Shown here in pieces: positions 1 through 17,640 of a stretch of DNA of 64,000 nt. The notes beneath the pieces were generated by a model. The model did no database searches. It worked only from the letters and a program-made list of their open reading frames with translations, and had not been told where the DNA came from. The DNA lies in assembly GCA_003022365.1 (NCBI GenBank), contig PXOU01000007.1, forward strand, positions 227 to 64,226. Direction: 5' to 3'. The stretch's first letter is position 1, and each line of letters begins with the position of its first letter. The position numbers and the translations under genes are program-made. The stretch is from Candidatus Saccharibacteria bacterium QS_5_54_17. GTDB taxonomy: Bacteria > Patescibacteriota > Saccharimonadia > QS-5-54-17.

Positions 1-2957
1 CTCCAGAGCAGGCGTGGGCCCAATCCGACCAATCATCCGGCTCAGTAGAAGGTGAATGGATCGACAATGCCCATATCAAAATTAAGGGAAACTTATATCT
101 CTACGGAAGTAACAATGAAGAGGATTCAGGGGATCAATTCTATTTTCAAAAATCAGAAGGCGAAAAGTTTAATAAAGAGTTTGAGGATGCAGCACCTTGG
201 GATCGCGACCATCCAGATAATTGCGTGGATTACATTCATGGTGACTCGTTTGGGCAATACCCCCATTTTAATAAGAAGACTACCACCGAAACCGCCACGC
301 TTACCATCAGAGATCACAAAGACGGCGAGGACGTATGTTATACAGAAAAGAAAGACGTTAACCTCGACCCGGAAGATGCCAACCCGGAAGATGCCAATAT
401 TGTGTTTAGACAGTTCGGGGAAGGGGACAAGAAGGAGATTAAGCCGGTTCATAATGACGCTTTTAGCAAGCCGGGTGATATAGATGATTACGATGTCAAG
501 GATACCATCAGTTTGGAAGGTTACAAGTCGTACCAATTTTTGGGTACCTATAGAATTGATAAGGACTACTCTAAACACAACGAAGGGGATGGGGAAAGGT
601 ACGCTAATACCAAGGGAGGGAAAGATTGCAAATCAGAACTCATAAAGCAAAGTAAAGGTGACGACAAAGTAGATGCGACCATCAAGCATTATGACAACTC
701 TTTTGAGTTGACCCCGACATGTGAGAGTAAAGAATTTAACGGTCTACGGGTAGTGAATGAATTTGACAATGTAAAGGCGGGCGAAACCCCAGCATACAAC
801 AAAGAGGACCTGGACGAACCGGGCGTGGATGCTGGCAATGACGATGAAGGCGACGATGAAGGAAGCGATGACAACATCGATTGCGACGCCGGGTTCGGAC
901 TCTCTTGGTTGGTCTGCAACATCATCAGCGCTTTCCGGAATTTCATGGAGTTCGCGACCAATGTATTAGAGTCGCTTTTGAGCGTCAGCCCCCTGGAGAG
1001 AACCAATGATGAAGGTGGCAAAACGTTCATCTACCAAACGTGGAGCAGCGTACGGAATATGGCCAATATATTCCTGATCCCGGTATTCATCTTTTTGATC
1101 TACGCCCAAGCCACCTCTTTCAATATAGACACCTATACCATAAAAAAGATGCTCCCCCGGCTGGTAGCGGCGGTTATATTTATCCAAGCCTCCTTCTTCC
1201 TGGTCGCAATTGCTGTAGACATTACCAACGTCCTGGGGAAAGGCATCGAAGGAGTAGTTCTGGCGCCCATACAAGACTCAGCCCTGCAAGAATCAGTTGC
1301 CCAAGACAGACCAGATCTGAATTTCAGCGGGGAAGGCGAAACGAGCGTAATAGTCGCCGGATCCGCCTTTTTGACGTATTTCGCAGCTACCGGGGGCCTG
1401 GCTACGATCGCGGGCGGGGCGGTCGCGTTCTTCCTGGTCATGCTGCCGGCTATCATCGCCATCATCGCTACTTTCTTGACCTTAATGCTGCGTCTTATAA
1501 TCATCGTGTTGCTGACTGTCCTATCCCCCATCGCCTTCCTTTTGTGGGTACTCCCCAATACGGAAAAATGGTTCAAACAATGGCTGGACATGCTCCTGAA
1601 AGCACTGATGATGTTCCCGTTGATCATGCTGCTGTTGGCTTCCGGTACCCTGGTGGCCGTGATAGCGACCAACTTTGGGGAAGGAGACGCCACAGAGGTT
1701 GAAGACGCTGTGACTGCGTTGATCGGCTTCGTGGCCGTTATGGCGCCCCTGTTCGTAATACCCTTCACCTACAAATTAGCCGGAGGGGCGGTGTCGGTCC
1801 TCGGCGGCACAGTCTCCAATCTCACCAACAAAGCCGCCCGGGGCAAAGACGGCAAGGGTGGTAAAGGTGGCAAGGGCGGCCTAATGGGGGGACTCCAGGA
1901 AAAGAAAGAGCGGCGTGAAACGGAGATGGCCGCCGGTATGAAACCCGACAACTTGCTCGGCAGGGCGGTAATGGGTACCCCCGCCGTAAGAAAAGCGGCC
2001 CAGGCCGGGGCCCGCCCCGGAGTCGGCGTGGGAGGAAAATCCCAAGCCCAGGCGATAGGAAAATTCAAGCAGCAAGTCGGCGAAGCGGACAGAACCCTTG
2101 AGGAGGAAGGCATTAACGACCCCGAAATACAGAATGAAATTGCCCAACATGGTGACTCAATTAGGGGCCGGATAAAGGAACTTGAAGGTAACGGTGAAAC
2201 CGAGAAGGCGGAGAAGTTGAAGGAGGTTAAGCACCATAGCGGCAAAAAAGAAGTGCGGGCCGCCGCCTTGCAGCGGGTAGCCAAGCAAGGGAAGGCGCAG
2301 CAGGCCAGTTTTGATGAAGTCCAGAAAGCGACCGGGGGCCAAGTCGGCAAGGACATAGTCTCCCAGGCAGCCCAAGCGGCCGGCAAAGATGGCGGTCGGC
2401 CGGACCTGAAAGCGTACAATACCGCCAGCAACGACGAAGACAAATGGAAGAATTACAAACAAGAGCTCCGGAGCATGAGCACCGAAAACTGGCAAAAACT
2501 CAAACCCGACGCCTTGGAAGACAAAAACAACAACCCAACCGAATTCGCCCAAGCCGCCAGGCAGCAAGCAGCAGAAGATAAGGAATTCAAACAGATGCTT
2601 GGTAAGATGGCGAGTCAGGAATCAGGAGTGCCGAAGGAAACCCGTGATAAGCTCAGCAGAACAGCGGGGTTGGATTTTGAGAGGGACCCCGACCTCCAAG
2701 CAGGCAACCTGGGCGTCGACGTAGCCTCGGCGGGCGGCACACCGGTAAAGCCCCGGGAGGGGGAGGAAGGCACCGTCCCCACCAGCCCACGGTTCGGGCA
2801 ATCCGGGCAATCGGGAGGACCGCAGGAACCGGGAGGAGCCGGGGAACCGGGACAACCCGGCCCCAACTACAACAACCAGGATCAAAATTCCGGAAACCCG
2901 AATCCCAATGACTCGTACAATCCGAATCCTAATGACCCGTACGATACACTTAGTTAG
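1..2957 (+). CDS. VirB6/TrbL-like polytopic membrane protein of a T4SS-like apparatus. It is 5'-truncated: frame 3 is open from the window start. It has an acidic N-terminal ectodomain, about 8 TM helices and a long K/E/G/Q/P-rich C-terminal tail with PNPND repeats.
   Basis: Frame 3 has no stop from nt 3 to 2957. There is a cluster of about 8 hydrophobic helices (aa ~225-520 of the listed ORF), matching VirB6/TrbL topology. It lies in synteny with the VirB3- and VirB4-like genes downstream. The C-terminus is a low-complexity tail. Confidence 0.55.
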   Translation, partial: PEQAWAQSDQSSGSVEGEWIDNAHIKIKGNLYLYGSNNEEDSGDQFYFQKSEGEKFNKEFEDAAPWDRDHPDNCVDYIHGDSFGQYPHFNKKTTTETATLTIRDHKDGEDVCYTEKKDVNLDPEDANPEDANIVFRQFGEGDKKEIKPVHNDAFSKPGDIDDYDVKDTISLEGYKSYQFLGTYRIDKDYSKHNEGDGERYANTKGGKDCKSELIKQSKGDDKVDATIKHYDNSFELTPTCESKEFNGLRVVNEFDNVKAGETPAYNKEDLDEPGVDAGNDDEGDDEGSDDNIDCDAGFGLSWLVCNIISAFRNFMEFATNVLESLLSVSPLERTNDEGGKTFIYQTWSSVRNMANIFLIPVFIFLIYAQATSFNIDTYTIKKMLPRLVAAVIFIQASFFLVAIAVDITNVLGKGIEGVVLAPIQDSALQESVAQDRPDLNFSGEGETSVIVAGSAFLTYFAATGGLATIAGGAVAFFLVMLPAIIAIIATFLTLMLRLIIIVLLTVLSPIAFLLWVLPNTEKWFKQWLDMLLKALMMFPLIMLLLASGTLVAVIATNFGEGDATEVEDAVTALIGFVAVMAPLFVIPFTYKLAGGAVSVLGGTVSNLTNKAARGKDGKGGKGGKGGLMGGLQEKKERRETEMAAGMKPDNLLGRAVMGTPAVRKAAQAGARPGVGVGGKSQAQAIGKFKQQVGEADRTLEEEGINDPEIQNEIAQHGDSIRGRIKELEGNGETEKAEKLKEVKHHSGKKEVRAAALQRVAKQGKAQQASFDEVQKATGGQVGKDIVSQAAQAAGKDGGRPDLKAYNTASNDEDKWKNYKQELRSMSTENWQKLKPDALEDKNNNPTEFAQAARQQAAEDKEFKQMLGKMASQESGVPKETRDKLSRTAGLDFERDPDLQAGNLGVDVASAGGTPVKPREGEEGTVPTSPRFGQSGQSGGPQEPGGAGEPGQPGPNYNNQDQNSGNPNPNDSYNPNPNDPYDTLS

Positions 2958-3147
2958 TATTAAGGCGTAATGATAAATCGGCCTATACGCCCACCATCTC
3001 AAATAGACAGATGAGAAGAGGTTGGAAGAAAAGTCTGGGTGGGGCGGGAGGGCGTGCTCGAGGAGCAGCTGAAGAGGAATAGGGGATTGGAGTTTGGGGA
3101 AGACGGCACTGGCGACGCTGCCAGCAAGGCCGCCTTCCCCGAAGACT

Positions 3148-3411
3148 CTACGATGATTTTCGTCGCCATTTAAGGCGTACTTCCCAGTACGCCTCAACGA
3201 CGGCATTAATTGCGAACCCCAGCACAAACGCTGCGGCCGACGTGGCCGCAGCGATTAATAACCCGGCAATAAGCCCGGCCTCGATCCACCCCCCTATTAG
3301 ACAAAGGGGGGCGAGCCCCATAGTGACGAAGAAGAAAATTTTAAAACCGAGGCTATCCTCGTTGGACGTTGTTTCGTTTACCACTTTGCGGACAAACGAC
3401 TTCTCGGTCAT
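3148..3411 (-). CDS. Small 2-TM membrane protein (87 aa), possibly pilin/VirB2-like; its orientation is convergent to the cluster.
   Basis: It has two clean hydrophobic helices (FFFVTMGLAPLCLIGGWIEAGLIAGLLIAAATSAAAFVLGFAINAVV). AAAGGGG lies 6 nt upstream of the ATG on the minus strand. The competing plus-strand ORF 3242-3508 is low-complexity. Confidence 0.35.
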   Translation of the reverse strand: MTEKSFVRKVVNETTSNEDSLGFKIFFFVTMGLAPLCLIGGWIEAGLIAGLLIAAATSAAAFVLGFAINAVVEAYWEVRLKWRRKSS

Positions 3412-3584
3412 CCTGTGCCCCTTTCGAGTCTTCTTCCAACCTGGCGAAGCGAAGAAAGCCCTTCGCTACTCATATAATCACATGAAATTTGATATTAGTC
3501 AAGGCTGACTGGGGTATTTTTGCACGTAGAACCCGGGATCACTCGGAATCATTACCAAAGCCCTACAATAAAAACCGGGCGAAA

Positions 3585-4140
3585 TATCATTCCTGAATAT
3601 GTCATTCCTGAAACAAGTTCAGGACAGGCTCTGAATTTATTTCAGGATCTGGTTTCCGGGTTGGTTTCAGCATAAAAATGATTCCGGATCGGAGTCCGGA
3701 ATGACAGAGAGGGTGACGAAAAAGCAATGTCATCCTGAATTTAGTTCAGGATCTATTTCAAAGCTGATTCCGAAACAAGTTCGGAATGACAGAGGGGGGG
3801 GCGGAATGAACTACCACGCCCTTACGGACGTGGTTTCACTTTAATTCAAGCTCCGCTTGGCCGCTGTCTTCCCGGCCCTGGTATTCGATGTAGTTCCGTA
3901 TGGTCTCTTCATCCACGCCGACGGTGGAGATAGCGTACAATCATGCCTCCATGCTACCGCATGGAGGCAAAGACAGCGGCGGCGCCTTCATCCACGCCCT
4001 TACGGACGTGGTTTTCTTATGGCGGATAAAGAGGATTCGCATTTTTTTCCTTACTTCCTGTTCCCTGTCTCCAGTCTCCAGTCTACTGTCTACCACTTAC
4101 TGCTTACTTCTTGCTGCTTGCTTCCTGCTTCCTTTTCCTG
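3585..4140. repeat. Composite hairpin-repeat block R1. It contains the modules gtcattcctgaaacaagttcaggacaggctctgaa, atttcaggatctg, ggattccggatcggagtccggaatgaca and two copies of ccacgcccttacggacgtgg, ending in a CT-rich cttacttcttgctgcttgcttcc module.
   Basis: The same modules recur at 11 or more other intergenic loci in this window. ORFs 3857-4141 and 3900-4154 lie inside the repeat and are probably spurious. Confidence 0.8.
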
Positions 4141-4197
4141 ACCGGCCATTATGACATGAGCTTTATACCCCGCATCTGATCCGCTATACTGGCGGGC

Positions 4198-5148
4198 ATG
4201 GCTACCTATAAAGTTCCCCAGGATGTCGAAGCCGAAGACAAATTACTGGGGCCGCTGACGTTCAAACAGTTCATTTTCATGCTGATCGCCGGCGGCGGGG
4301 GGCTGCTGGCTTGGCTGATGTGGCAGGTGCACCCGTTCCTGGTGGTGTTACCGCTGCCGATCGTGGTGATATTCGGCGGACTGGCCGTCTTCCGCCGGGA
4401 AGACCAGCCCATGGAGCGGTACTTACTGTCCTTTTTTAACTTTCTGTTGCGGCCGCGCCAACGGGTGTGGAACACCGAAGGGTATTACGAACATCTGGTC
4501 CTCACCAAACCCAAAAAACAGGAGGAAACACCCCTCAAACAGGATGTCCACGAAGTCCATGGCCAATTGGAAAAACTGGCCCAGACGGTCGACACGCGGG
4601 GATGGGCCGCCAAACGTCCGGAGCTGACGGTACCGGACGCCAACCCGGCTATCGGCGCCAGCGGCGACGACCGGTTGTTCAGGCCCGACGAGTCCCAGGA
4701 GCCGGCCGAGGTGCACGAGCGCGAAGACATCATGAGCGAGGAAAACCCCGAAGGCATGCAGCTTGACAATCTGCTACACGAACAAACCCGCCAGCGGCGC
4801 GAGCAAGTGATGGAGAACGTCCGCCGGCAAGCACGTGGTCAAACCCCGGCGGAGGGAGAAACCGTGCCCCAGGCGGACGGGCATCATACCCCGGCTGAGG
4901 TTCCTGCCGCCAGCCCGGCCGCGGAAGCTTCGGAATCCCCGCCATCACCACCGGCTGGGCAGACGGGCAACGACCAGGCGACCGACAACACCGACAATCA
5001 GGCGCCCCAGACCCAGGCACCCGAAACCGCCCAGCAATCTGGTATACTGAACGTGTCTGATGAGTTAAGCGTCAGCCAGATCGCCGCCGCGGCCAACCGG
5101 CAATCCGATGATCGCTTGCAAGAGGGTGAGGAGATACAACTGCGATGA
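4198..5148 (+). CDS. VirB3/PrgI-like small T4SS membrane protein with a long disordered C-terminal extension.
   Basis: The N-terminus LLGPLTFKQFIFMLIAGGGGLLAWL plus a second TM helix matches PrgI/TcpE/VirB3-family topology. It sits immediately upstream of the VirB4-like genes. The C-terminus is P/A/Q/E-rich low complexity. Confidence 0.5.
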   Translation: MATYKVPQDVEAEDKLLGPLTFKQFIFMLIAGGGGLLAWLMWQVHPFLVVLPLPIVVIFGGLAVFRREDQPMERYLLSFFNFLLRPRQRVWNTEGYYEHLVLTKPKKQEETPLKQDVHEVHGQLEKLAQTVDTRGWAAKRPELTVPDANPAIGASGDDRLFRPDESQEPAEVHEREDIMSEENPEGMQLDNLLHEQTRQRREQVMENVRRQARGQTPAEGETVPQADGHHTPAEVPAASPAAEASESPPSPPAGQTGNDQATDNTDNQAPQTQAPETAQQSGILNVSDELSVSQIAAAANRQSDDRLQEGEEIQLR

Positions 5149-5274
5149 CTAATCAGCGACACGATAGCCGCGAGCAACCAGGCCCGTTCCAAAATTCCAC
5201 CACGGCTCAGATGTCTTTATGCTTCCGTGTTACCTGCCGCGTCCGGCTGGTTCCATGGCAATCGGGGAGGTTTT

Positions 5275-6285
5275 ATGCCGCCCGATGATCAACAACCCGC
5301 CAACCAGGCAGGCCAGCAGTATGTGCCCGGGAACACCGGCGGGCAGGCCTCAGAACAGACCAACACCGCCGGGCAACCGGATCCAAGCCAAGCTGGACAA
5401 AGCCCCGGGCAAGGACAGCAGCAAGGTCAGCAACAACCCCAGCAACAACCAAACGCCCAAGCAACTCAGCAACAACCCCGGCCCCAACCCAACACCCAGC
5501 GGCCCACCCCAGGCAGCCAGCCCAATGCGGGGCAATCAAAAAAATCGAAAGAGAATAAGAAATCGAGGAAAAAGGCTAACAGCACCCAGAAATCACTGCT
5601 GGTTTCCGAGATACGCGATGGCATCGTTATCATGCGGGACAGTTCGCTGCGTTCGGTGGTCATGTGCCAGTCGGTCAACTTCGATCTGATGAGCCCACAA
5701 GAGCGGGAAGGGGTGGAACAGGCCTACCAACAGTTCCTGAATTCGCTTGATTTTACCGTCCAGATATACATCCGCAGCCAGCGCATCAACCTGGATAACT
5801 ACTTGGAAAAACTCCAAAACGCCCGGCAGAACCAGGACAACATTCTGCTGGGGCTTTTGATGGAGGATTACATCGAATACATCAAGTATCTGGTGGAAGC
5901 AGCTAACATCATGGACAAGCAATTCTACGTCATCGTGCCATATTATCCGTCCGGAATTTCCGAGGGTATCGCCAGCGGTGCCCAGAAATTCACCGAACTG
6001 TTCAAGACCAAGAAGAAAGACGTGGTAACCGTCAACGAAAACGAGTTCAATAAACATAAACAGGAGCTGAGCCGGCGGGCCCGTACGGTCGCCAACGGGT
6101 TGAACCGGATCGGCACCCAGGCCGTACCGCTCAACACCCAGGAACTCATCGAGTTGTATTACAATGTGTACAATCCGGTCACCTCCAAACAGGAGAAGCT
6201 GACCGACGTCAATCAACTAGAGTCCCCGATCATCGAAAAAGGCGAGGGGCAAGCCGACCAGGTACTCCCCGGGGAGAACGCATGA
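5275..6285 (+). CDS. Standalone VirB4 N-terminal-domain-like protein (CagE/TrbE/VirB-like fold) with a ~110-aa Q/P-rich disordered N-terminus.
   Basis: The likely start is ATG 5275, 5 nt after GGGGAGG, in the same frame as listed ORF 5227. The C-terminal 220 aa (IRDGIVIMRDSSLRSVVMCQSVNFDLMSPQEREGVEQAYQQFLNSLDFTVQIYIRSQ...) resemble the N-terminal domain of VirB4 proteins. There is no Walker motif. Confidence 0.45.
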   Translation: MPPDDQQPANQAGQQYVPGNTGGQASEQTNTAGQPDPSQAGQSPGQGQQQGQQQPQQQPNAQATQQQPRPQPNTQRPTPGSQPNAGQSKKSKENKKSRKKANSTQKSLLVSEIRDGIVIMRDSSLRSVVMCQSVNFDLMSPQEREGVEQAYQQFLNSLDFTVQIYIRSQRINLDNYLEKLQNARQNQDNILLGLLMEDYIEYIKYLVEAANIMDKQFYVIVPYYPSGISEGIASGAQKFTELFKTKKKDVVTVNENEFNKHKQELSRRARTVANGLNRIGTQAVPLNTQELIELYYNVYNPVTSKQEKLTDVNQLESPIIEKGEGQADQVLPGENA

Positions 6286-8725: not shown

Positions 8726-8815
8726 TGTATAGGCCGCCCTTTCGTGATATGCTAGGGTAAAGGTAAGGATAACAGGTATGATCCCCCCGTCCTGGATGTG
8801 GCAGGAGTATATAAG

Positions 8816-10018: not shown

Positions 10019-10959
10019 AGAACCGGATATTGGTCGGGGCGATTGCGGGAGGCTTGATACTGGCAACGGCCCTCGTCGTCGCGGTCCAGCTGAATTCCGG
10101 GTCGGAACCCTTTTTCCAGAAAGCCGCCCATGATCACGTCAAACACATGCGGTTCGTGGAACCCAATGTGCTCCAGTACGTCACCCGGGACAACGAGGTT
10201 AAGCGACTCGGAGCGGAAACCTTCCGGACCGAAACCCAAACCCAGGTGAAAGGGTTTCACGTCCGGCTCAGCCCCTCAGGCGAATACGTCAGCCACGCCA
10301 AGGACGGCAAAATACACATCACTACGGTATCCTCGGAGCGGACCAACCACCGGTTGCACGGTTCGCTGCATCGCTGGCAGGACGAGTCATCGCTTATGTA
10401 TATCAAAAACCAATCAAAGCCCTCCGTGTTCCTGGAAGAAGGACAGCTTACCCGGTACCATCTTGAGACTACCAACAAGGACTATGTCATGGACATAGCG
10501 GGCACCGTTATCCATCCGTTGAATTCGTATTCGGGACTGATACTCACCGCGGCCGGCCAGGAGGTAGCCGAGAACGCCCGTTTAACGCTCTACAGTGGCC
10601 GGAAAGAGGCGGAGGTGGCGGTCTCCGATCAACCCATCCAAAGCACGGCCAGCGCTCATGGACTGATGGCTTTCCAGACCCGCGGCGATCCCACCCTGAA
10701 ACTCATCAACCGGCACGGCCGGGTAAAACCGACCGCCATCCAACCGCGGGAAAGTTTGTACCGACCCGTGGATGGGGATACCATCGCCGCCGAGATAACC
10801 AGCGCCGATCAACGGAAAATCGAACTATACGACGTCTCCCAATCGGTGGTGGAAAGACAGCTGCCTCTGGGTGAAGTAGGCGAAGTCATCGACGTGGCGG
10901 CCACGGACAGCTACGTCGCCGTCGCCACCACCAACGGGATATACGTAGGAGCCTTATAG
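10015..10959 (+). CDS. N-terminally TM-anchored extracytoplasmic protein of unknown function (possible T4SS structural component).
   Basis: ATG 10015 follows AAAAGGGG. It has a single N-terminal TM helix, sits in the operon with the hydrolase genes, and its start overlaps the stop of the upstream gene. Confidence 0.5.
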   Translation: MKNRILVGAIAGGLILATALVVAVQLNSGSEPFFQKAAHDHVKHMRFVEPNVLQYVTRDNEVKRLGAETFRTETQTQVKGFHVRLSPSGEYVSHAKDGKIHITTVSSERTNHRLHGSLHRWQDESSLMYIKNQSKPSVFLEEGQLTRYHLETTNKDYVMDIAGTVIHPLNSYSGLILTAAGQEVAENARLTLYSGRKEAEVAVSDQPIQSTASAHGLMAFQTRGDPTLKLINRHGRVKPTAIQPRESLYRPVDGDTIAAEITSADQRKIELYDVSQSVVERQLPLGEVGEVIDVAATDSYVAVATTNGIYVGAL

Positions 10960-10960
10960 T

Positions 10961-11578
10961 ATGATGCGATCCAAAAAACTACTCATCATCGCCGCTGTTA
11001 TCATCTTTCTACTGGCTGCCGTCGCGGCGGTGTATTGGCTGGAATTCCGGAACCAGGAATTCCAGCTGGAGGATACTTCCCCCGGCCAGCAAGTCCGGAT
11101 AGACCGGCTGACTCCCACCATTTCTTTTGACTATAATCAACCCCTCTTTATCCCCGAGGATTTCCGGGTGGTGAGCGATCCGCTCATGGACGCGGAAATA
11201 TACACCCGCGGCGACACGCTGTATCTGGTACCCAACCACGCGCTCCTCCAGCGAGCGGAATACACCCTGACCATACCCCGGATCGAAAGCCAATCCGGCC
11301 AAAGCATAGGTGAACACACCCTTACCTTCCGCACGGACCGGCGACAGTCGTCCCGGCTTGGGTTTATCCGTGACCTGCCGGTGCATAATCCCGGCTACAG
11401 CATCACCTATCTGGAAGATCAGGATGCGTTCGTGGTCCGCATTACCCAAGTGCCGGTAGAAGAAAAGCGGCTACGGGCGCGTAACTATCTGGAGAAGAAC
11501 GGCATTAAACCCGGGCAAAACGACGTTAAATTCGAAATATTGCGCAGCGTGGAAGGGCGGGGCGCTTCAGCGGGATAA
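10961..11578 (+). CDS. Bitopic membrane protein (205 aa) with VirB8-like topology: short cytoplasmic N-terminus, one TM helix, about 170-aa periplasmic domain.
   Basis: Topology only. It is translationally coupled (ATG 2 nt after the upstream stop). There is no sequence-level family match I can assert. Confidence 0.4.
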   Translation: MMRSKKLLIIAAVIIFLLAAVAAVYWLEFRNQEFQLEDTSPGQQVRIDRLTPTISFDYNQPLFIPEDFRVVSDPLMDAEIYTRGDTLYLVPNHALLQRAEYTLTIPRIESQSGQSIGEHTLTFRTDRRQSSRLGFIRDLPVHNPGYSITYLEDQDAFVVRITQVPVEEKRLRARNYLEKNGIKPGQNDVKFEILRSVEGRGASAG

Positions 11579-11584
11579 TCGGCC

Positions 11585-11845
11585 GATGGGGGCAGTTGAC
11601 AGGAAGCAAGGAGCAAGTGGCAAGTGGAAAATGCAAATCCTCTTTGTCATTCCGAACTTGTTTCGGAATCGGCTCTGAAACAGATCCTGAAATAAATTCA
11701 GGATGACAATGGGGGAAGATCCTGAAACAAGCCTGCCTGCCGGCAGGCAGGTTCAGGATGACATTTTCACTACCCCTCTCTGTCATTCCGGCCCCCGAGC
11801 CGGAATCTATTAAACCGAGGTGTTCAATAAGTTCTGTCAAACTAA
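11585..11845. repeat. Composite repeat block R3: purine-rich arm gacaggaagcaaggagcaagtggcaagtgg; hairpin modules including gtcatcctgaacctgcctgccggcaggcaggttcaggatgaca and tgtcattccggcccccgagccggaat; ending with the ggtgttcaataagttctgtca module.
   Basis: Direct sequence comparison with R1, R2, R4-R12. ORF 11526-11840 is probably spurious. Confidence 0.8.
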
Positions 11846-11905: not shown

Positions 11906-14900
11906 ATGGCGGAAGCCCAGGATACAGACGACCAGGACCAAAACCAGGATTCGGCCGGCCAGGGCGATGTCGAACAAGACACCCGGGAAGGCGGGGAGCA
12001 AGCCAATCAAGACGGCGGAGCGAGCGAATCCACCGGTGAGGGCGGAGCAGGCGAATCCAGCGGCGGAAGCGGCGGTTTTTACTCGGCTGGCGGCGGCGTA
12101 GCCGAATCCGCCCTGAATAAGACCGCCGTCGGGCGCGGGCTGAAGCCCGTGCTCAAGCTCATCGGCCGTAACAAAGGCAAGAGCGGCATTGCCGGCGGCA
12201 TCGTGGGGGTAATTATAACCATGGTAGTGGTCGGTTTTCTGGGTTTGAAACAGTTCGAGCTGGTGCACATGATGAAAATTTTTCACAACTACGCTTTCGT
12301 GGCGTCCGAATATACCGAAGGCGGCCGGACTTCCCGGCTTCTTGCCCGCACCTTCCAACGCGGCCGTAATATGGAAACGAAAAGAGTTCGCCAGGACGGC
12401 AACCGGCGGAGGACCGGCAACCTGATCAGCGACTGGGTTAATGACAGCCGTTTGAATAAAATCGAGTCAAAAATTGAGAAGAAGGGATATACATTTGAAT
12501 ACAAGAGCGCAAACGGCCACCGGGTGGCTACGGGGATACGCCAAATAGATACCGGGGAGGTGATCGAACTGAAGAACTTCCGCCAAGCACGAGGAGAGAT
12601 CCGCACGCTCATCAAACAAGGGATCAAACCTTGGCGGGTGGGGAAGCGATTCCGGTTTCATCAGTTGATGTATTACCGCACCGGGTGGAATCGGAAATTC
12701 TTTACCGGACGCAAGCGGGCCGATGCCTCCCGGCGGTTGCGCGCCCGGGTACGCGGGGAGAAGTATAACCCGGAGGCGCGCCCCAGAGACAGTGACAGCG
12801 ACAGCAAGGTTTCCGAGGAAACCAGACAACAGGTGGAAGGTGAAGTAGAGGAACAACAGAACAAAGTCAACAATATCATCGAGGACGCTCGCCGGGGACG
12901 CTCGCCAAACCTGAAAGCTCGGGCTTCCGAGATCGGTTTAAGCGTCACCGGTTTGGCAATGATGAAGTGTCTCGCCGAGAGTATTGAAAAGCAAACCGAG
13001 GGCCAAGAGCGGGCCCGCCAGGAAGCACCCATGGTCCTGGCCCAGGAAGTATCCACCGCCGCTCATCAAGCCAAAGTCGGGGGGAATACGGTGAGCGGCG
13101 AAGAATACGGGCAGCTGATGGAAGTTTTTCACGATCCAGCAACAGAGGGTACGGAAGGGAAAAACATAGTTGCAGCTGCTGGCGGCACCGGTACTCCAGC
13201 AACAGAGGATACGGAAGGGAGACACCCAGGCGAAACTGCCGCCTATAAACGAGCGGCCGGTGTACAGCTTACCGGCAACGAACCGGATCTCGAGGACAAT
13301 TATTATGTCAAGGCGGGAGGGATAGGCGGTTTTTTTCGTAACGTCGCAAAAGAGGGGTTAGAACGCATTAATGCAGTAGGCAAATTAGGAAACAATATAT
13401 GTAGCTTTTTGGGTAATACGGGAGTCCAACTGACCGCGGACTCCATAGAGCTTATCGCCTCCTTGGGTGTGGGGAAAGCGGTTGCCATCGGGGGCGAGTG
13501 GGCGCTGGAGCAATTAAGAGCTTTTCAGTGGGCTGTGGGCAATTTTGTGGATTGGATAGTCGACAACATCAGCTGCATGGATTTCGGCTTCTCGGCGCAT
13601 CTGGCCACCAACTGCCTGGCCGCCGGCATGGTGATGAACAACACCGAACATGTCCGAAGCAACATGGGCGCGCCGCCGCTTTCGGGTGATAAATACGAGA
13701 AAGTCCGGGATAAAGCCCAGGACGCCCAACACGACTTTCTGGCCCGGAAGGGTTCGTTCCATAAGTACCTGTCTCCCGACAACCCCTACTCCCTTACCTC
13801 CAAGGTGGCCGTGGCCATGCCCAAAACCTTTCACGGGCTGGCTCGCCAAACGGCCAACATTCCTTCCGCCCTTCTGGATTCGCTGGGAAGCATCTTTTTC
13901 CAGTCCGTCGGCGCCCAGTGGAAGGAAGGGGACGATTATAAAACCTACGGGTTGGAACACTTCGGGTTCACCGACGCAGAAGTGCAGAACGTCGACCCCG
14001 TTGCCAACGAAAAGCACGTTCTGGATCATCTGAACTATTACTGCTGGAAAAATTCCAACGGCAATGAGTGGCAAGTCTACGATGGGAAGGGTTATAGGGG
14101 TTGCGACAAAAGCAAGTTCACCACAGCTGTCAATATGCGGGAGTATCTGTGGTGCTCGCAACTCCCTTACAACGAACCCAGCAGCGGGGGCACAAAGGGT
14201 TGGAGCGACACCCATTGCCCGGATCGTTTCGTCCGAGACAGCTCGCAAAGTTGGTTATCCACAAACAATTTGATCGCCATTTCCATGTGGATGTTTGACC
14301 GGTATACCGTGGAAAACATGTCTCAACTGGTCTCGGATAACAAATTAGACGACACCATAACCTTTAACCTTCTTGAGGATATCGAAAGCTGCGCTCAACA
14401 AATAAAGGAAGATCCGGGTACTCCGGCCACGATGGGCTCGTTTGTTGCTAGAAAGGAAAATCCGCCCATCCCTTTGAGTTGTTATGAGAAAACGGACGAA
14501 CGGCCCTCAATTTTTTACTCCAAAGGCTATATGCAGGGTGAAGGTGGCAGTGCCTCGGCAGATGACGGCGGCTCGGGGAGTGATGGCGGCGACAACAACA
14601 CTGGCGGCGGCGGGAGCGGCGAGTCCCAACCCGTAGAGGGGGAGACGGAAGAACTGGCCAAGCGCATTCTGAATCGTCCCGATATTACTTTTAAGGGCGG
14701 CGAGGGCGGCAGAGTACGGAATTCCTTCGTGCAAGCCAGCCGCAGCGGCACCGCATCCAAGTACACCCGGGATGGTCGCCGGACGGAGGTAAGTTCCCAG
14801 TTGCTGGGGGTCATCCTGCGCATAGCCAACCAGTCTAACATACCCCGCATCCGGATCACCTCGCTTACCACCGGCGATCATACCTCCGGTAGTACGCACT

Positions 14901-15112
14901 ATAGCGGGCAGGGAGTAGATATCGGCAATCAGTTTGCCGATACTCTTATCCGGTTCGTTTACCGGAACCGCGGCAACTTCGGCATCCACGAGATTATATA
15001 CGCCTCGCCGCCACAGGGCACCAGTAATCTTAAGTCCGGGGAGTCCTTTTCCTACTCGCCGAAGACCAGGGAAAATCATAGTGATCACATACATATTTCC
15101 ACACTGCAATGA
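11906..15112 (+). CDS. Large (1068 aa) membrane-anchored protein with an acidic disordered N-terminus, one TM helix and a C-terminal LAS/M15-type zinc peptidase fold (VanY or L-Ala-D-Glu peptidase-like).
   Basis: The C-terminus RITSLTTGDHTSGSTHYSGQGVDIGN...HSDHIHIS fits the Peptidase_M15 S-x-H-x-x-G-x-A/G-x-D and HxH zinc motifs. A TM helix IAGGIVGVIITMVVVGFLGL is present. The gene is translationally coupled to the downstream gene. Confidence 0.65.
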   Translation: MAEAQDTDDQDQNQDSAGQGDVEQDTREGGEQANQDGGASESTGEGGAGESSGGSGGFYSAGGGVAESALNKTAVGRGLKPVLKLIGRNKGKSGIAGGIVGVIITMVVVGFLGLKQFELVHMMKIFHNYAFVASEYTEGGRTSRLLARTFQRGRNMETKRVRQDGNRRRTGNLISDWVNDSRLNKIESKIEKKGYTFEYKSANGHRVATGIRQIDTGEVIELKNFRQARGEIRTLIKQGIKPWRVGKRFRFHQLMYYRTGWNRKFFTGRKRADASRRLRARVRGEKYNPEARPRDSDSDSKVSEETRQQVEGEVEEQQNKVNNIIEDARRGRSPNLKARASEIGLSVTGLAMMKCLAESIEKQTEGQERARQEAPMVLAQEVSTAAHQAKVGGNTVSGEEYGQLMEVFHDPATEGTEGKNIVAAAGGTGTPATEDTEGRHPGETAAYKRAAGVQLTGNEPDLEDNYYVKAGGIGGFFRNVAKEGLERINAVGKLGNNICSFLGNTGVQLTADSIELIASLGVGKAVAIGGEWALEQLRAFQWAVGNFVDWIVDNISCMDFGFSAHLATNCLAAGMVMNNTEHVRSNMGAPPLSGDKYEKVRDKAQDAQHDFLARKGSFHKYLSPDNPYSLTSKVAVAMPKTFHGLARQTANIPSALLDSLGSIFFQSVGAQWKEGDDYKTYGLEHFGFTDAEVQNVDPVANEKHVLDHLNYYCWKNSNGNEWQVYDGKGYRGCDKSKFTTAVNMREYLWCSQLPYNEPSSGGTKGWSDTHCPDRFVRDSSQSWLSTNNLIAISMWMFDRYTVENMSQLVSDNKLDDTITFNLLEDIESCAQQIKEDPGTPATMGSFVARKENPPIPLSCYEKTDERPSIFYSKGYMQGEGGSASADDGGSGSDGGDNNTGGGGSGESQPVEGETEELAKRILNRPDITFKGGEGGRVRNSFVQASRSGTASKYTRDGRRTEVSSQLLGVILRIANQSNIPRIRITSLTTGDHTSGSTHYSGQGVDIGNQFADTLIRFVYRNRGNFGIHEIIYASPPQGTSNLKSGESFSYSPKTRENHSDHIHISTLQ

Positions 15113-16413
15113 AGTACACGCGACTCGCATTATTTAGTATGATTTTGGTTTTTACGCTGGCCTCCATAATTTCCGGAGTAGGAGCCTTGCCGGCGGAAGA
15201 CGAAAAAGCATACATTTACGACAGCGTTTATTACGATGGCGATGCCACCACCGACCGATGCAGCCAGGGCGGAGCGGAAAGTATAGAGGAGTTACCTTCT
15301 AAAATTCGGCAACCGTACCGGGATCTTTTCCCGGAAGCAGCATCTGAGCAAAATGCCGATTTGGCCTTGTTGACGTTCGTCTTCTTCTGGGAAAACCGCG
15401 ATTTCCCGCCGCCGGACTACGACTGGCCTACTTCCGATTTAGAAGGTGACGACGACCCACAGGGACCGTTCCAATTCCGACCTAGTACATGGGACGCCTA
15501 CGGGGTTGACGGCGACGGAGATGGCGACAAAGACCTACAGGACGTAACCGACGCGGCCTACGGAGCGGCTAATTTTCTGAACTCGCTGGGCGGTAGCCAG
15601 GGGAGCCCGGTGGGCAGCGCCGCCAACCCCTTTGAAGAGGGAACGTTGGCATACGCTATGGGGGCCTACAACCACGGCCCGGCCGCCATGGAAAGAAAGA
15701 AGGATCTCCCCGAAGACGAGCGTGAGCTCCCCAAGGAAACCCGGGATTATATCAAGCGCGGCGTAACTTTTATCCGGGATTTGCGGTCCGGTACGGTCAA
15801 TCTGTCTACTGACGTGGAAGCTGGAGGAGGTGAAACGGCGCAGGCAAACGTAAGCCTTTCTTCGAACGGATGCGGCGGTTTAGGGGTGGGAAGTGATCTG
15901 GTATTCCCCTTGAAAACCACCAAGGCTGCCATACGGGAAGGGACTACCTTGAACGGCACGACCCTGACTTGGTGCCATGACAACCAAACCAACTGCCACA
16001 GCCCTCCCGGCTCCGATGACTTATACAAAGCCGCCGATGTCTTCGTGGAACCCGGCACCGAAGTAGTCGCCGCCACCAGCGGGACCGTGATTAAAACCGA
16101 TCCGCCGGGGCCATCCTTGAGCGTCCGGATACACGGCGAAGATGGTAACTATTATCATTACCAACACCTGAAACCCCACTCTGAGCGCGTCAACGAGAAC
16201 GACCGCGTGGAAGCGGGTGACGTGATAGGGGTTATCGGCGGGCCGAAAGCCGCGTTTGGCACCGCACCGCATCTTCACTTTGATGTCGCCACCGAAAACG
16301 TCGGCATTAGCCGTGACTGTGTGTCAAGCGGGAACTGTGAATATGAAAAATCGGTCATGATTGACGCCCAGCCCGATTTAGTAGGAGCATATAAAGCGTT
16401 ACCACAGGATTAG
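15109..16413 (+). CDS. Secreted bifunctional peptidoglycan hydrolase: MltB/Slt-family lytic transglycosylase domain plus M23 (LytM) endopeptidase domain.
   Basis: It has a signal peptide. The MltB-like motif is GPFQFRPSTWDAYGVDGDGDGDKDLQDVTDAAYGAANFL. The M23 motifs are HDNQTNCHSPPGSDD...HYQHL...GTAPHLHFDV. The start overlaps the upstream stop (ATGA). Confidence 0.8.
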   Translation: MKYTRLALFSMILVFTLASIISGVGALPAEDEKAYIYDSVYYDGDATTDRCSQGGAESIEELPSKIRQPYRDLFPEAASEQNADLALLTFVFFWENRDFPPPDYDWPTSDLEGDDDPQGPFQFRPSTWDAYGVDGDGDGDKDLQDVTDAAYGAANFLNSLGGSQGSPVGSAANPFEEGTLAYAMGAYNHGPAAMERKKDLPEDERELPKETRDYIKRGVTFIRDLRSGTVNLSTDVEAGGGETAQANVSLSSNGCGGLGVGSDLVFPLKTTKAAIREGTTLNGTTLTWCHDNQTNCHSPPGSDDLYKAADVFVEPGTEVVAATSGTVIKTDPPGPSLSVRIHGEDGNYYHYQHLKPHSERVNENDRVEAGDVIGVIGGPKAAFGTAPHLHFDVATENVGISRDCVSSGNCEYEKSVMIDAQPDLVGAYKALPQD

Positions 16414-16416
16414 CCT

Positions 16417-17640
16417 ATGCGGATAAGTTTTACACAAATCACCATAATAGTTGTCGGGGCGCTGATAGTCATCGGGGCCATATGGCTGGTGGTTTCCTAC
16501 TTCACCACCGGAGTCCTGCGGGTGGAAACCGGGCAAAACGCCCGGGTTGAACGGTTCGAGATCGCCGAAAACAGCCAACAAGCCCGAAAGCTTGGCACGG
16601 GGCCGGTGGTTAGCCAACGATTGGATCCGGGAACCTACACCGTAACGGCCGAAAACGCGGAGGGGGAAACGCGGACCGATACTACGGTGCAAAAACGGCA
16701 GACCACCGAGGTTCAGCTCAAGGTAGAAGAAGCAGGCAAGTTCCAAGAACTCACCCGTGGCAACGCCTATAACATAATCTCCCAGGCCGGCCGCCTGCGT
16801 TTTCTCGACCAAAACTTGAAACGGCTGTATCAGTTGGAAGCAGCCGGGCAGCGGCCCGAAAACGTCTTTCCCGGTTTATCCCCGGTATCGAGTATTACCT
16901 GGGCGGGTTATGACAGCGCGTTTGTCCAGCTGGAGAATAACGCCTATAAAGCGCTGGCCAGTGGCAACGTCAAACCGTTTCGATATCCACCGGATGCCCG
17001 CCCTAGTACCGATAACATCCCCAGCCTCGCCTCCCATGACATCAACGACCGCGGCCAAATGGCGGTTAATATCGAGGGTAGTTTGTATCGGTACCCGTCA
17101 GTGGATGCTGAGCCTGACAAATTACGCGATTTACCCAGCCAGAGCAGCCAAATCGCCCTCTCGGACACCGGAAGCATTTTTATATTCCACCCACCGGTAA
17201 CGGGCGAAAACAGTCAGTCCCAGCCCAGCAACCTGATTGTGGGAAGCCAAGCGTCTATGCCGGATGCGATGAAAAATACACACGTGTTGAATGCCGAGTG
17301 GAGTCCATCCGGTAACAAGTTACTCCTGGCCAAGAAAAACGGGCTCCACGTCTACGACAAAGCCGAGCAACAATTAAGCCGGGTTATGCAGTTTCTCCCC
17401 GATAATGCGGACAGTCTCCTGTGGCGGGATGAAAACCGGTTGCTTATGGTCGACGACGGTGCCGTCTGGCAGCTGCACATAGGTGAGCAGAAATGGCGGA
17501 AAATGGCGGACACGCCGGACCCGGTCCGGCACAACAACCCGCTCACCCTTGGCCAGGATGGACGGACCTTATATATGGGTACCACTTCGCAGGGACTGGA
17601 AAATGCCGGGTCTTTGTACCAACTTCGCCTGCCGCAATAG
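16417..17640 (+). CDS. TM-anchored extracytoplasmic protein with a PEGA/CarboxypepD_reg-like beta-sandwich followed by a probable beta-propeller (TolB-like) region.
   Basis: N-terminal TM helix. PGTYTVTAENAEGETRTDTTV is a typical PEGA-like strand pattern, and WSPSGNKLLLAKKNGLHVYD is a propeller-blade-like segment. 57735-59414 looks like a paralogue. Confidence 0.5.
   Translation: MRISFTQITIIVVGALIVIGAIWLVVSYFTTGVLRVETGQNARVERFEIAENSQQARKLGTGPVVSQRLDPGTYTVTAENAEGETRTDTTVQKRQTTEVQLKVEEAGKFQELTRGNAYNIISQAGRLRFLDQNLKRLYQLEAAGQRPENVFPGLSPVSSITWAGYDSAFVQLENNAYKALASGNVKPFRYPPDARPSTDNIPSLASHDINDRGQMAVNIEGSLYRYPSVDAEPDKLRDLPSQSSQIALSDTGSIFIFHPPVTGENSQSQPSNLIVGSQASMPDAMKNTHVLNAEWSPSGNKLLLAKKNGLHVYDKAEQQLSRVMQFLPDNADSLLWRDENRLLMVDDGAVWQLHIGEQKWRKMADTPDPVRHNNPLTLGQDGRTLYMGTTSQGLENAGSLYQLRLPQ

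What the first reader, a model, noticed from the sequence alone, without database searches (positions are those of the whole stretch)
1..17640. Origin-adjacent T4SS-like cluster (VirB6, VirB3, VirB4) lacking coupling protein and relaxase, occupying the usual gyrB position
Seventeen kb of co-directional genes sit directly beside dnaA-dnaN-recF-DUF721, where gyrB/gyrA normally follow. They encode a VirB6/TrbL-like polytopic protein, a VirB3/PrgI-like protein, a standalone VirB4-N-domain-like protein and a TrsE-type VirB4 ATPase. Three peptidoglycan hydrolases and several TM-anchored periplasmic proteins follow. No VirD4 coupling ATPase, relaxase, oriT-like or integrase gene is visible in the window. 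The cluster is bracketed and internally punctuated by the repeat elements (R1-R4). Such minimal T4SS-like sets without DNA-transfer components occur in some monoderm and CPR-type genomes. This suggests a non-conjugative role such as DNA uptake, host attachment or effector delivery.
Basis: partly seen in the sequence, partly recalled or inferred. Interest (0 to 1): 0.7.

Follow-up and report, generated by a model that had tools for sequence, protein, structure and literature searches.

The report
Known origin-adjacent Saccharibacteria type IV secretion system

Summary
Window 1-17640 carries a co-directional set: a VirB6-like polytopic protein, PrgI/VirB3, a TrsD-like VirB4 N-domain protein, a VirB4 ATPase, three cell-wall hydrolases and several membrane-anchored proteins. 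It runs convergently into DciA-recF-dnaN-dnaA. No coupling protein, relaxase or integrase gene is in the 64 kb.

The window is a contig of 'Candidatus Saccharibacteria bacterium QS_5_54_17'. Its VirB4 is about 70% identical to proteins from at least 587 species-level Saccharibacteria genomes. In 54 of 56 informative relatives the same cluster abuts recF/dnaN/dnaA. In 38 of 46 a VirB2-like pilin array lies upstream. GC and GC3 match the neighbouring housekeeping genes. This is a vertically inherited core system, not an ICE.

This system is already published, including its lack of a relaxase, its TrsD protein and its position near dnaA (McLean 2020; Wang 2023, essential for epibiotic growth; Quinonero-Coronel 2025).

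The 'bracketing' repeats are a genome-wide, lineage-specific intergenic hairpin family, not element borders.

Small additions from this work:
- The contig breaks at an IS transposase where relatives have the pilin array.
- The VirB6 ectodomain is shared with an extended pilin in the nearest relative.
- The large protein that follows VirB4 in relatives carries swappable C-terminal hydrolase domains.

The parts
1..2957 (+). VirB6/TrbL-like extended polytopic channel subunit, about 1010 aa. The gene starts 75 nt before the window, at contig position 173, with signal peptide MKKYILSSSIAILMLLMLGVAIGLSTPEQAWAQ. Domains: an N-terminal ectodomain of about 280 aa (window 1 to about 760), a TM core (about 1044-1785) and a long hydrophilic C-terminal tail.
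   Evidence: ORF and start. (TrbL E=0.0018, below the cut-off). (precomputed PF19590 TrbL_3 on this protein and its orthologues). (conserved core). (signal peptide plus at least 5 TM). (ectodomain 54-58% identical to the N-terminus of a 447-aa T4SS_pilin protein in L007).
3148..3411 (-). Small 87-aa protein with two hydrophobic helices, on the opposite strand. Function unknown.
   Evidence: called gene. (hydrophobic segments). (74% aa identity to the syntenic ORF in L007). No Pfam hit.
3590..4140 (.). Intergenic repeat block R1. It is built of hairpin units (TGTCATTCCGG...CCGGAATGACA; TCCTGAAAC..GTTCAGGA) and a CT-rich tract. At 3843-3945 (minus strand) there is a possible remnant of an IS200/IS605 TnpA C-terminal tail.
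   Evidence: The TnpA reading rests on a motif only; Pfam did not confirm it.
4198..5148 (+). PrgI/VirB3-like membrane protein: PrgI domain at residues 5-91, two TM helices and a long acidic low-complexity tail.
   Evidence: PF12666, E=6.4e-15, 55.9 bits against a cut-off of 27.. (present in 46 of 46 relatives).
5227..6285 (+). TrsD-like protein, a stand-alone VirB4 N-terminal domain. It has a Q/P-rich N-terminus. The called start is 5275.
   Evidence: matches positions 11-117 of the CD1110 VirB4 profile at E=8.7e-6, TIGR00929 at 1.2e-5, TrsD NF041427 at 1.1e-4; all below the cut-offs. (PF26593 TraC-like). (46 of 46 relatives, always directly upstream of virB4).
6434..8356 (+). VirB4 ATPase, C-terminal two thirds of a canonical VirB4. 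Walker A is AKSGAGKS (269-276) and Walker B is YLVVDE (488-493).
   Evidence: NF045971, 2.2e-107, 360 bits against a cut-off of 325, covering profile positions 185-734. (P-loop_TraG, AAA_10). (100% identical to a protein of Ca. Saccharibacteria bacterium QS_5_54_17; about 70% to many Saccharimonadales)..
8359..8710 (.). Intergenic repeat block R2.
8798..10018 (+). Membrane-anchored peptidoglycan hydrolase with a glucosaminidase-like domain plus an M23 endopeptidase. HAGID and HPH zinc motifs are intact. It is the first gene of a 3-gene module that L008 lacks.
   Evidence: M23 3e-27; Glucosaminidase 9.9e-5.. (module present in L007, absent in L008).
9985..10959 (+). TM-anchored extracytoplasmic protein, 314-324 aa, no family assigned.
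   Evidence: no significant family. (N-terminal anchor). (orthologue in L007). (0 of 56 other loci).
10961..11578 (+). TM-anchored 205-aa protein with a possible Ig-like domain.
   Evidence: Big_5 only at E=0.063...
11600..11825 (.). Intergenic repeat block R3, inverted relative to R1, R2 and R4.
   Evidence: pairs I1-I7..
11906..15112 (+). 1068-aa protein: one TM helix (residues 91-120), a helical scaffold module of about 600 aa that is conserved in Saccharibacteria, and a C-terminal LAS/Hedgehog-DD-peptidase-like zinc domain (H998-x6-D1005, H1061-x-H1063). It is orthologous to the large protein that directly follows VirB4 in relatives.
   Evidence: 25% identity to the L002 722-aa post-VirB4 protein. 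(360 representatives, two separable modules). (C-domain profile against the Sonic hedgehog N-domain, E=4e-5, over the zinc motif). (N-module homologues end in VanY, M74, M23 or GH26 instead).. Structure prediction failed.
15109..16413 (+). Signal-anchored lytic transglycosylase (SLT_2) plus an M23-like domain. The first zinc-ligand His is replaced (YKAAD); HLH is present.
   Evidence: SLT_2 5.6e-10; M23 5.8e-15..
16417..17640 (+). TM-anchored 407-aa protein. It may combine a CarboxypepD_reg/PEGA-like domain with a beta-propeller-like domain.
   Evidence: only weak hits, E 0.003-0.07.. Orthologues in L007 and L008.
17676..18013 (.). Intergenic repeat block R4, lying between the convergent ends of the T4SS operon and dciA.
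18086..22391 (-). dciA (18086-18343), recF (18356-19390), dnaN (19590-20675) and dnaA (21018-22391). DnaA-box clusters lie at 20724/20898 and at 22514-22576, marking the probable oriC.

Best explanation
This is the core chromosomal type IV secretion system of Saccharibacteria (the Patescibacteria-clade T4SS, derived from monoderm MPF-FATA conjugation machinery).

Shown here:
- The membrane translocon genes are present: a VirB6-like channel subunit, PrgI/VirB3, and a VirB4 split into a TrsD-like N-domain protein plus the ATPase.
- They are followed by a fast-evolving set of membrane-anchored cell-wall hydrolases and scaffold proteins.
- The cluster is inherited vertically next to recF-dnaN-dnaA.
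- In relatives it is preceded by a divergently transcribed array of VirB2-like pilins. In this assembly that array is cut off by a contig break at an IS element.

Inferred from published work on relatives: VirB4 powers assembly of a pilus-bearing conduit across the monoderm envelope, and the hydrolases open the wall locally. The machine serves the epibiotic, host-dependent lifestyle, either by delivering proteins to the host bacterium or by acquiring host material. It does not serve conjugation, because no relaxase or coupling protein accompanies it. The substrate is unknown.
For: Identity of the parts:
- VirB4 CD1110 family above the curated cut-off.
- PrgI above the cut-off.
- TrsD-like protein matching the N-terminal 100 positions of VirB4 profiles.
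- VirB6-like topology and precomputed TrbL_3.
- M23, glucosaminidase and SLT hydrolases.
- LAS-type C-domain.

Core gene, not mobile:
- VirB4 is about 70% identical across at least 587 species-representative genomes.
- 54 of 56 loci have recF/dnaN/dnaA convergent downstream.
- 46 of 46 have PrgI and TrsD, 44 of 46 have the VirB6 core, and 38 of 46 have an upstream pilin array.
- GC/GC3 is 0.564/0.678 for the cluster and 0.554/0.688 for the adjacent housekeeping genes.

No DNA-transfer genes:
- None in the 64-kb window.
- None within 10 kb either side in five annotated relatives.

Literature:
- The homologous cluster SEML1_0006-0019 is essential for epibiotic growth of S. epibionticum, has pilins and lacks a coupling protein and relaxase (PMC10633639).
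- Phylum-wide survey: TrsD, PrgI, VirB6, pilin arrays, no relaxase, proximity to dnaA/dnaN (PMC12102498).
- Conservation of the T4SS region across Saccharibacteria (PMC7427843).
- Review (PMC12857230).
Against: - The VirB6 assignment is weak by the local Pfam copy (E=0.0018, below the cut-off; 1 of 6 orthologues hit). It found no plasmid or PDB relative.
- The pilin array cannot be shown for this genome because the contig ends there.
- A coupling protein or relaxase elsewhere in this incomplete genome cannot be excluded.
- No experiment bears on this organism, and the transported substrate is unknown even in the model species.
Confidence: 0.9

Rival explanations
1. Remnant or cargo of an integrative conjugative element (ICE), with its VirD4, relaxase and integrase lying just beyond the left end of the window.
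For: The contig ends 61 nt before the called VirB6 ORF, in the C-terminal tail of an rve-type DDE transposase. Repeats flank and punctuate the cluster. VirB4 is of a type otherwise found on monoderm conjugative elements.
Against: - The nearest relative (98% VirB4 identity, collinear at 85-93% nt identity) has the pilin array at that position, and L002 and L008 then have HSP20 and a phosphoribosyltransferase.
- Synteny with recF-dnaN-dnaA holds in 54 of 56 species.
- Composition equals that of the housekeeping genes.
- The repeats are genome-wide.
- The transposase tail is an IS, not a tyrosine or serine integrase.
Confidence: 0.02
2. A DNA-uptake machine, analogous to H. pylori ComB or archaeal Ced, that imports host DNA as a nucleotide source.
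For: There is no relaxase or T4CP. Saccharibacteria cannot make nucleotides. VirB4 gives weak hits to CedB and CedD (44.6 and 21 bits).
Against: The CedB/CedD hits are far below their cut-offs of 700 and 600 bits. In S. epibionticum, competence depends on T4P and ComEC. Deleting comEC abolishes transformation without loss of viability, whereas the T4SS is essential (PMC12857230 summarising PMC10633639). DNA uptake for transformation is therefore not the essential role. Import of other nucleic acids is not excluded.
Confidence: 0.08
3. Mainly a pilus-assembly and adhesion device: VirB2-like pili for host attachment, without translocation of any substrate.
For: Pilin arrays are conserved beside the cluster in 38 of 46 loci. 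In the nearest relative one pilin carries the same 275-aa ectodomain as the VirB6-like protein, which suggests surface display. Tubular structures at the parasite-host interface are reported for another Patescibacterium (bioRxiv 10.64898/2026.06.21.733656).
Against: Type IV pili already provide adhesion in Saccharibacteria (PMC10633639). The many associated wall hydrolases with varied C-terminal domains fit envelope penetration better than adhesion alone. This rival is not exclusive of the best explanation.
Confidence: 0.15

Closest known systems
T4SS of Candidatus Southlakia epibionticum ML1 (SEML1_0006-0019; Wang et al. 2023, PMC10633639) and the 'Patescibacteria clade' T4SS of Quinonero-Coronel et al. 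2025 (PMC12102498)
   Same: Same class (Saccharimonadia). Same parts: VirB6, PrgI/VirB3, TrsD, VirB4, and peptidase and lysozyme-type hydrolases downstream of virB4. Same lack of a relaxase and a nearby coupling protein. Same position beside dnaA/dnaN. Pilin array in relatives.
   Different: - This assembly lacks the pilin array because of a contig break at an IS.
- The region after VirB4 is the longest seen: 10.0 kb against a median of 6.2 kb. This is due to an extra 3-gene hydrolase module and the intergenic repeats.
- The accessory proteins are too diverged to align with most relatives.
- I did not align this locus directly with the ML1 sequence.
T4SS region of Nanosynbacter lyticus TM7x (McLean et al. 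2020, PMC7427843)
   Same: VirB4, VirB6 and VirB2 homologues plus an array of small Sec-signal proteins, conserved across Saccharibacteria.
   Different: That paper compared the array to pertussis toxin subunits. It was later re-read as VirB2-like pilins (PMC12102498).
Gram-positive conjugative T4SSs of class MPF-FATA: pGO1/pSK41 Trs (TrsC-TrsD-TrsE), pCF10 Prg/Pcf (PrgH-PrgI-PrgJ-PrgK-PrgL), CTn2 (CD1110 VirB4)
   Same: Gene order VirB6-like, VirB3-like, (TrsD), VirB4, then a membrane-anchored wall hydrolase. VirB4 scores above the CD1110-family cut-off. There are no outer-membrane core components.
   Different: There is no relaxase, coupling protein, oriT or plasmid/ICE backbone. VirB2-like pilins are present in relatives but absent from Gram-positive systems. 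No VirB8/PrgL-like protein was recognised. The location is chromosomal, beside the origin, and inheritance is vertical.
T4CP-less effector translocators (Bordetella pertussis Ptl, Brucella VirB)
   Same: They function without a coupling protein and without DNA transfer.
   Different: Those are diderm MPF-T systems with a VirB7/9/10 core complex. No homology exists beyond VirB4/VirB3/VirB6.

Membership tests
Patescibacteria-clade chromosomal T4SS (Wang 2023; Quinonero-Coronel 2025) | VirB4 ATPase related to the monoderm MPF-FATA type and closely related to other Patescibacteria VirB4s | tested here: met
   NF045971 at 360 bits against a cut-off of 325. 65-89% identity to Saccharibacteria proteins and loci. 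No formal phylogeny was run.
Patescibacteria-clade chromosomal T4SS (Wang 2023; Quinonero-Coronel 2025) | TrsD-like (VirB4 N-domain) gene associated with virB4 | tested here: met
   5227-6285 matches the N-terminal positions of VirB4 profiles and TrsD. PF26593. Present directly upstream of virB4 in 46 of 46 relatives.
Patescibacteria-clade chromosomal T4SS (Wang 2023; Quinonero-Coronel 2025) | VirB3 homologue (PrgI) | tested here: met
   PF12666, E=6.4e-15, above the gathering score.
Patescibacteria-clade chromosomal T4SS (Wang 2023; Quinonero-Coronel 2025) | VirB6-like polytopic membrane protein | tested here: inconclusive
   TrbL at E=0.0018, below the cut-off, and only 1 of 6 orthologues hit. 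Precomputed PF19590 TrbL_3 on 5 of 6. At least 5 TM helices and the position before prgI fit. No PDB or plasmid match.
Patescibacteria-clade chromosomal T4SS (Wang 2023; Quinonero-Coronel 2025) | Array of VirB2-like pilins beside the cluster | tested here: inconclusive
   No pilin gene in the window. The contig ends 61 nt before the called VirB6 ORF. The nearest relative L007 has at least 5 pilin genes there, and 38 of 46 relatives have an array.
Patescibacteria-clade chromosomal T4SS (Wang 2023; Quinonero-Coronel 2025) | No relaxase and no coupling protein near virB4 | tested here: met
   Pfam annotation of all called genes of the window and of 10 kb either side in five relatives. CONJscan/MOB HMMs were not available.
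Patescibacteria-clade chromosomal T4SS (Wang 2023; Quinonero-Coronel 2025) | Chromosomal position near dnaA/dnaN | tested here: met
   recF lies 716 nt from the last T4SS gene. DnaA boxes present. 54 of 56 relatives.
Patescibacteria-clade chromosomal T4SS (Wang 2023; Quinonero-Coronel 2025) | Required for epibiotic growth | not testable with these tools
   Known only for S. epibionticum ML1 by Tn-seq (PMC10633639).
Conjugative element (ICE or plasmid) with an MPF-FATA T4SS | Relaxase (MOB) gene and oriT | tested here: not met
   No relaxase family on any gene of the window or of the relatives' flanks. oriT cannot be tested without a relaxase.
Conjugative element (ICE or plasmid) with an MPF-FATA T4SS | VirD4/TcpA-type coupling ATPase | tested here: not met
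   Same calls. The only related P-loop protein is VirB4 itself.
Conjugative element (ICE or plasmid) with an MPF-FATA T4SS | Integrase and element borders; patchy distribution and foreign composition | tested here: not met
   Only an IS transposase tail at the contig end. The repeats are genome-wide. Synteny is conserved in 54 of 56 species. GC3 equals that of housekeeping genes.
DNA-import T4SS-like systems (archaeal Ced; H. pylori ComB) | CedA/CedB-type or ComB-type components | tested here: not met
   CedB 44.6 bits against a cut-off of 700; CedD 21 bits against 600. This is generic P-loop similarity only.

The most novel reading that the evidence does not exclude
The accessory half of the cluster may be a host-targeting adaptation module rather than housekeeping 'hole-punching'.

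- The conserved scaffold protein that follows VirB4 in relatives (11906-15112 here) carries interchangeable C-terminal enzymatic domains across Saccharibacteria. Here the domain is Hedgehog/DD-peptidase-like; elsewhere it is VanY, M74, M23 or GH26 (a family annotated as mannanase/xylanase).
- In this lineage the same 275-aa ectodomain sits on both the VirB6-like channel subunit and an extended VirB2-like pilin.

Together these suggest that the T4SS presents lineage-specific surface modules and enzymes that recognise and breach the envelope of the particular host bacterium. If so, these variable parts would be determinants of host range.
Probability: 0.2. Interest if true: 0.6.

Novelty: already known. 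Interest (0 to 1): 0.25.

Why it matters
The system itself matters. It is the first T4SS shown to be essential for the bacterium that carries it, its substrate is unknown, and it probably underlies the parasitic lifestyle of a large part of the bacterial tree. This window adds only one more, hypersaline, example of a published arrangement.

The modest added value lies in three lineage-specific details: the IS-associated break, an extra hydrolase module, and shared or swappable surface domains. These could guide experiments on host specificity.

Tried and rejected
1. AlphaFold2 of the 1068-aa protein with the 6 homologues obtainable gave mean pLDDT 32 and is unusable.
2. AlphaFold2 of its C-terminal domain (5 sequences) gave pLDDT 61, with the metal-site half disordered. 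Foldseek against the PDB gave nothing below E=0.8. The LAS assignment therefore rests on a sequence-profile match, motifs and a weak hhalign to a VanY homologue (E=0.0028, probability 11%).
3. A second word-indexed homologue search, using the profile, found no further relatives.
4. The VirB6 core found no match by tblastn in 72,556 plasmids. A 6-sequence profile found no PDB match.
5. Rfam and tRNA scans of the whole window found nothing, so the repeat blocks are not known RNAs.
6. The promoter/terminator scan was not informative: 12 promoter-like sites against 11.6 expected.
7. The suspected IS200 TnpA tail (34 aa) gave no Pfam hit, so I keep it only as a motif-level remark.
8. I considered that the 205-aa TM protein could be the missing VirB8/PrgL analogue, by size and position. 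Its only hint is Ig-like (Big_5, E=0.063), so I do not claim it.
9. The idea that the cluster is a recent horizontal acquisition is rejected on composition and synteny.

Full report
**What the window is.** The VirB4-like protein at 6434-8356 is 100% identical to a protein of 'Candidatus Saccharibacteria bacterium QS_5_54_17', on a 69,427-bp contig. The window is that contig from position 249 onward.

**Checking the observation.** All genes from 1 to 17640 lie on the plus strand.

- **PrgI/VirB3.** Pfam supports 4198-5148 (E=6.4e-15, above the cut-off).
- **VirB4.** NCBIfam supports 6434-8356 as a CD1110-family VirB4 (2.2e-107, 360 bits against a cut-off of 325). It has a Walker A (AKSGAGKS) and a Walker B (YLVVDE).
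- **TrsD-like protein.** 5227-6285 matches positions 11-117 of the same VirB4 profile, while the ATPase gene covers positions 185-734. It also hits the TrsD/TraD family. VirB4 is thus split into two genes, as in pGO1 TrsD/TrsE. The split is present in 46 of 46 relatives, so it is not a frameshift.
- **VirB6-like protein.** This is the weakest assignment. The local Pfam gives only TrbL at E=0.0018, and only one of six orthologues hits it. Precomputed annotation lists PF19590 TrbL_3 for five of six. The protein has a signal peptide and at least five hydrophobic helices in a conserved core, and it sits where prgH sits relative to prgI-prgJ.
- **Downstream hydrolases.** These are a glucosaminidase-plus-M23 protein with intact zinc motifs (8798-10018) and an SLT_2-plus-M23-like protein (15109-16413). 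The third is a 1068-aa protein whose C-terminal domain matches the zinc-binding motif of the Sonic hedgehog N-domain when searched as a 24-sequence profile against PDB sequences (E=4e-5). It keeps H-x6-D and H-x-H. That is the LAS (lysostaphin / DD-carboxypeptidase / hedgehog) peptidase signature. Structure prediction did not confirm it.
- **Anchors.** Every protein after VirB4 has a single N-terminal hydrophobic anchor.
- **Origin genes.** DciA, recF, dnaN and dnaA follow on the minus strand. DnaA boxes cluster on both sides of dnaA.
- **Missing DNA-transfer genes.** No coupling ATPase, relaxase or integrase family appears on any called gene of the 64 kb.

**What lies upstream.** The contig ends 61 nt before the called VirB6 ORF. 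Its first 99 nt encode the C-terminal tail of an rve-type DDE transposase (NTYNSVRPHEALGMLTPEEYY...). The assembly therefore breaks at an IS copy. The true VirB6 start is probably the ATG 75 nt before the window, which gives a signal peptide.

In the nearest relative (L007, 98% VirB4 identity, collinear at 85-93% nucleotide identity), that position holds a divergently transcribed array of at least five T4SS_pilin (PF18895) genes. The same is true of L002, L003, L004 and L008. In L002 and L008, HSP20 (and, in L002, a phosphoribosyltransferase) follow the array.

**Core or mobile?** A scan of one genome per species found at least 587 close VirB4 relatives, and nearly all of the 80 listed are labelled Saccharibacteria/Saccharimonadales. 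I analysed 80 fetched loci.

| Feature | Loci with the feature | Loci informative |
|---|---|---|
| recF/dnaN/dnaA convergent downstream | 54 | 56 (at least 11 kb after virB4) |
| PrgI and TrsD | 46 | 46 (at least 9 kb before virB4) |
| VirB6 core | 44 | 46 |
| Pilin array on the opposite strand | 38 | 46 |

GC and GC3 of the ten T4SS genes (0.564/0.678) equal those of dciA-recF-dnaN-dnaA-rnpA-yidC-jag (0.554/0.688). The glycan locus further right is the low-GC part of the window (0.506/0.591). This is a vertically inherited, origin-adjacent core locus, not an island.

**The repeats.** The four intergenic blocks are real. Their core hairpin motif, TGTCATTCCGR, occurs 13 times in the window against 0.11 expected, and six of those sites lie outside the cluster. 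Among the 81 relatives' loci (the other 7 of the 88 fetched by then were pieces of this contig or not yet held) it occurs ten times in L007, in intergenic gaps of the cluster (before VirB6, VirB6-PrgI, after VirB4, after the 204-aa gene, after the last gene), and once in L048. The repeats are a lineage-specific, genome-wide REP/MITE-like family. They do not mark the borders of an element. Rfam finds no known RNA there.

**Comparison with what is known.** The literature already describes this system.

- McLean et al. 2020 reported a conserved T4SS region (VirB4, VirB6, VirB2 plus a secreted-protein array) across Saccharibacteria (PMC7427843).
- Wang et al. 2023 showed by Tn-seq that the cluster SEML1_0006-0019 is essential for epibiotic growth of S. 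epibionticum. They noted that it resembles Gram-positive conjugative T4SSs, has essential pilins, and lacks a recognisable coupling protein and relaxase (PMC10633639).
- Quinonero-Coronel et al. 2025 surveyed the phylum. VirB4 forms a Patescibacteria clade related to MPF-FATA. TrsD is the most abundant associated component. PrgI and VirB6 are present, pilin arrays are common, relaxases are nearly absent, and virB4 lies near dnaA, dnaN, rnpA and rpmH. They proposed that this placement gives a gene-dosage effect (PMC12102498).
- A 2025 review repeats these points (PMC12857230).

**How it most likely works.**

*Shown here:* the gene set, its conservation and its context.

*Inferred from established T4SS biology and the papers above:* VirB6, PrgI and the split VirB4 form the membrane translocon and its motor. 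Pilins, off-contig here, are assembled into a surface filament. The anchored hydrolases open the cell wall. The machine operates at the contact with the host bacterium.

Because relaxase and coupling protein are absent, conjugation is unlikely. Because comEC is dispensable in S. epibionticum while the T4SS is essential, DNA uptake for transformation is not the essential role. Protein delivery to the host, or acquisition of host material, remains open.

**Small additions from this work.**

1. The region between virB4 and recF is 10.0 kb here, against a median of 6.2 kb and a maximum of 8.6 kb in 51 relatives. The excess comes from a three-gene module (M23/glucosaminidase, 314 aa, 205 aa; 8798-11578) flanked by repeat blocks. 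The module is present in L007 but absent in L008.
2. The 1068-aa protein is orthologous, through its N-terminal module, to the large protein that directly follows VirB4 in relatives. An exhaustive profile search found 360 cluster representatives and showed two separable modules. Of 48 proteins with the N-module, the C-terminus is VanY in 3, M74 in 2, GH26 in 2 and M23 in 1. In one representative the hedgehog-like domain occurs with LysM plus glucosaminidase. This is a conserved scaffold with a swappable wall-degrading domain, functionally comparable to PrgK/VirB1.
3. The N-terminal 275-280 residues of the VirB6-like protein are 54-58% identical to the N-terminus of a 447-aa protein in L007 whose C-terminus is a T4SS_pilin domain. 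No such sharing was found in 40 other loci.

These points support, but do not prove, the idea that the variable parts adapt the machine to particular hosts.

**Verdict.** Interest is low for this finding as such, although the system itself remains an open functional problem.

Noticed in passing
L001 1-102 (contig start, 147-248 nt before window position 1): The contig begins inside the C-terminal tail of an rve-type DDE transposase (NTYNSVRPHEALGMLTPEEYYESISNKPAPMCT*), directly upstream of the VirB6-like gene. Relatives carry the pilin array at this position, so an IS copy probably caused the assembly break.
   Followed up: partly
window 1-760 (VirB6 ectodomain) and L007 1050-2393 (minus strand): The signal peptide plus the 275-aa ectodomain of the VirB6-like protein is 54-58% identical to the N-terminal part of a 447-aa protein that ends in a T4SS_pilin domain. 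A second L007 pilin shares the first 64 residues. This was not seen in 40 other Saccharibacteria loci.
   Followed up: partly
window 11906-15112: The scaffold protein that follows VirB4 in relatives has a polymorphic C-terminus across Saccharibacteria. Here it is a Pfam-unannotated Hedgehog/DD-peptidase-like zinc domain. In homologues it is VanY, Peptidase_M74, M23 or GH26.
   Followed up: partly
window 3590-4140, 8359-8710, 11600-11825, 17676-18013; also 24953, 49995, 50132, 53428, 54642, 59541: A genome-wide intergenic repeat family built from short hairpins (TGTCATTCCGG..CCGGAATGACA; TCCTGAAACnnGTTCAGGA) and CT-rich tracts. Among the relatives' loci fetched by then it occurs in L007 (10 copies) plus a single match in L048. 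Its function is unknown and there is no Rfam match.
   Followed up: partly
window 3843-3945 (minus strand): The reading frame AISTVGVDEETIRNYIEYQGREDSGQAELELK* resembles the C-terminal tail of IS200/IS605 TnpA. It is flanked by two copies of the hairpin CCACGCCCTTACGGACGTGG (about 3812-3835 and 3986-4010). This is a motif-level reading only; Pfam gave no hit.
   Followed up: partly
window 8798-11578: A three-gene module (glucosaminidase+M23, 314 aa, 205 aa) lies between repeat blocks. It is present in L007 and absent in L008 (89% VirB4 identity), so it is a lineage-specific insertion into the cluster.
   Followed up: partly
window 3148-3411 (minus strand): An 87-aa two-helix membrane protein on the opposite strand between the VirB6-like gene and prgI. 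It is conserved at 74% in L007 and has no family.
   Followed up: partly
window 38000-46400: The glycan/sulfotransferase locus (two Sulfotransfer_1 genes, PMT, GT4, Methyltransf_21) has distinctly lower GC (0.44-0.51) than the rest of the window. This region, rather than the T4SS, is the better candidate for horizontal acquisition in this window.
   Followed up: no
L079, L080, P0097: Near-identical Saccharibacteria-type VirB4 loci occur in MAGs labelled Dormiibacterota, Flaviaesturariibacter and Magnetospirillaceae. These are probably binning contaminants.
   Followed up: no
L002 19367-20709: dnaA is called as two ORFs (260 + 182 aa) in this relative. This may be a frameshift or an assembly error.
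   Followed up: no
VirB6-like orthologues (L001, L002, L003, L007, L008): Precomputed annotation lists PF19590 TrbL_3 without a weak mark, but the local Pfam-A scan never reports that family, even at E up to 0.1 (against 31, 35). The two Pfam copies apparently differ.
   Followed up: no
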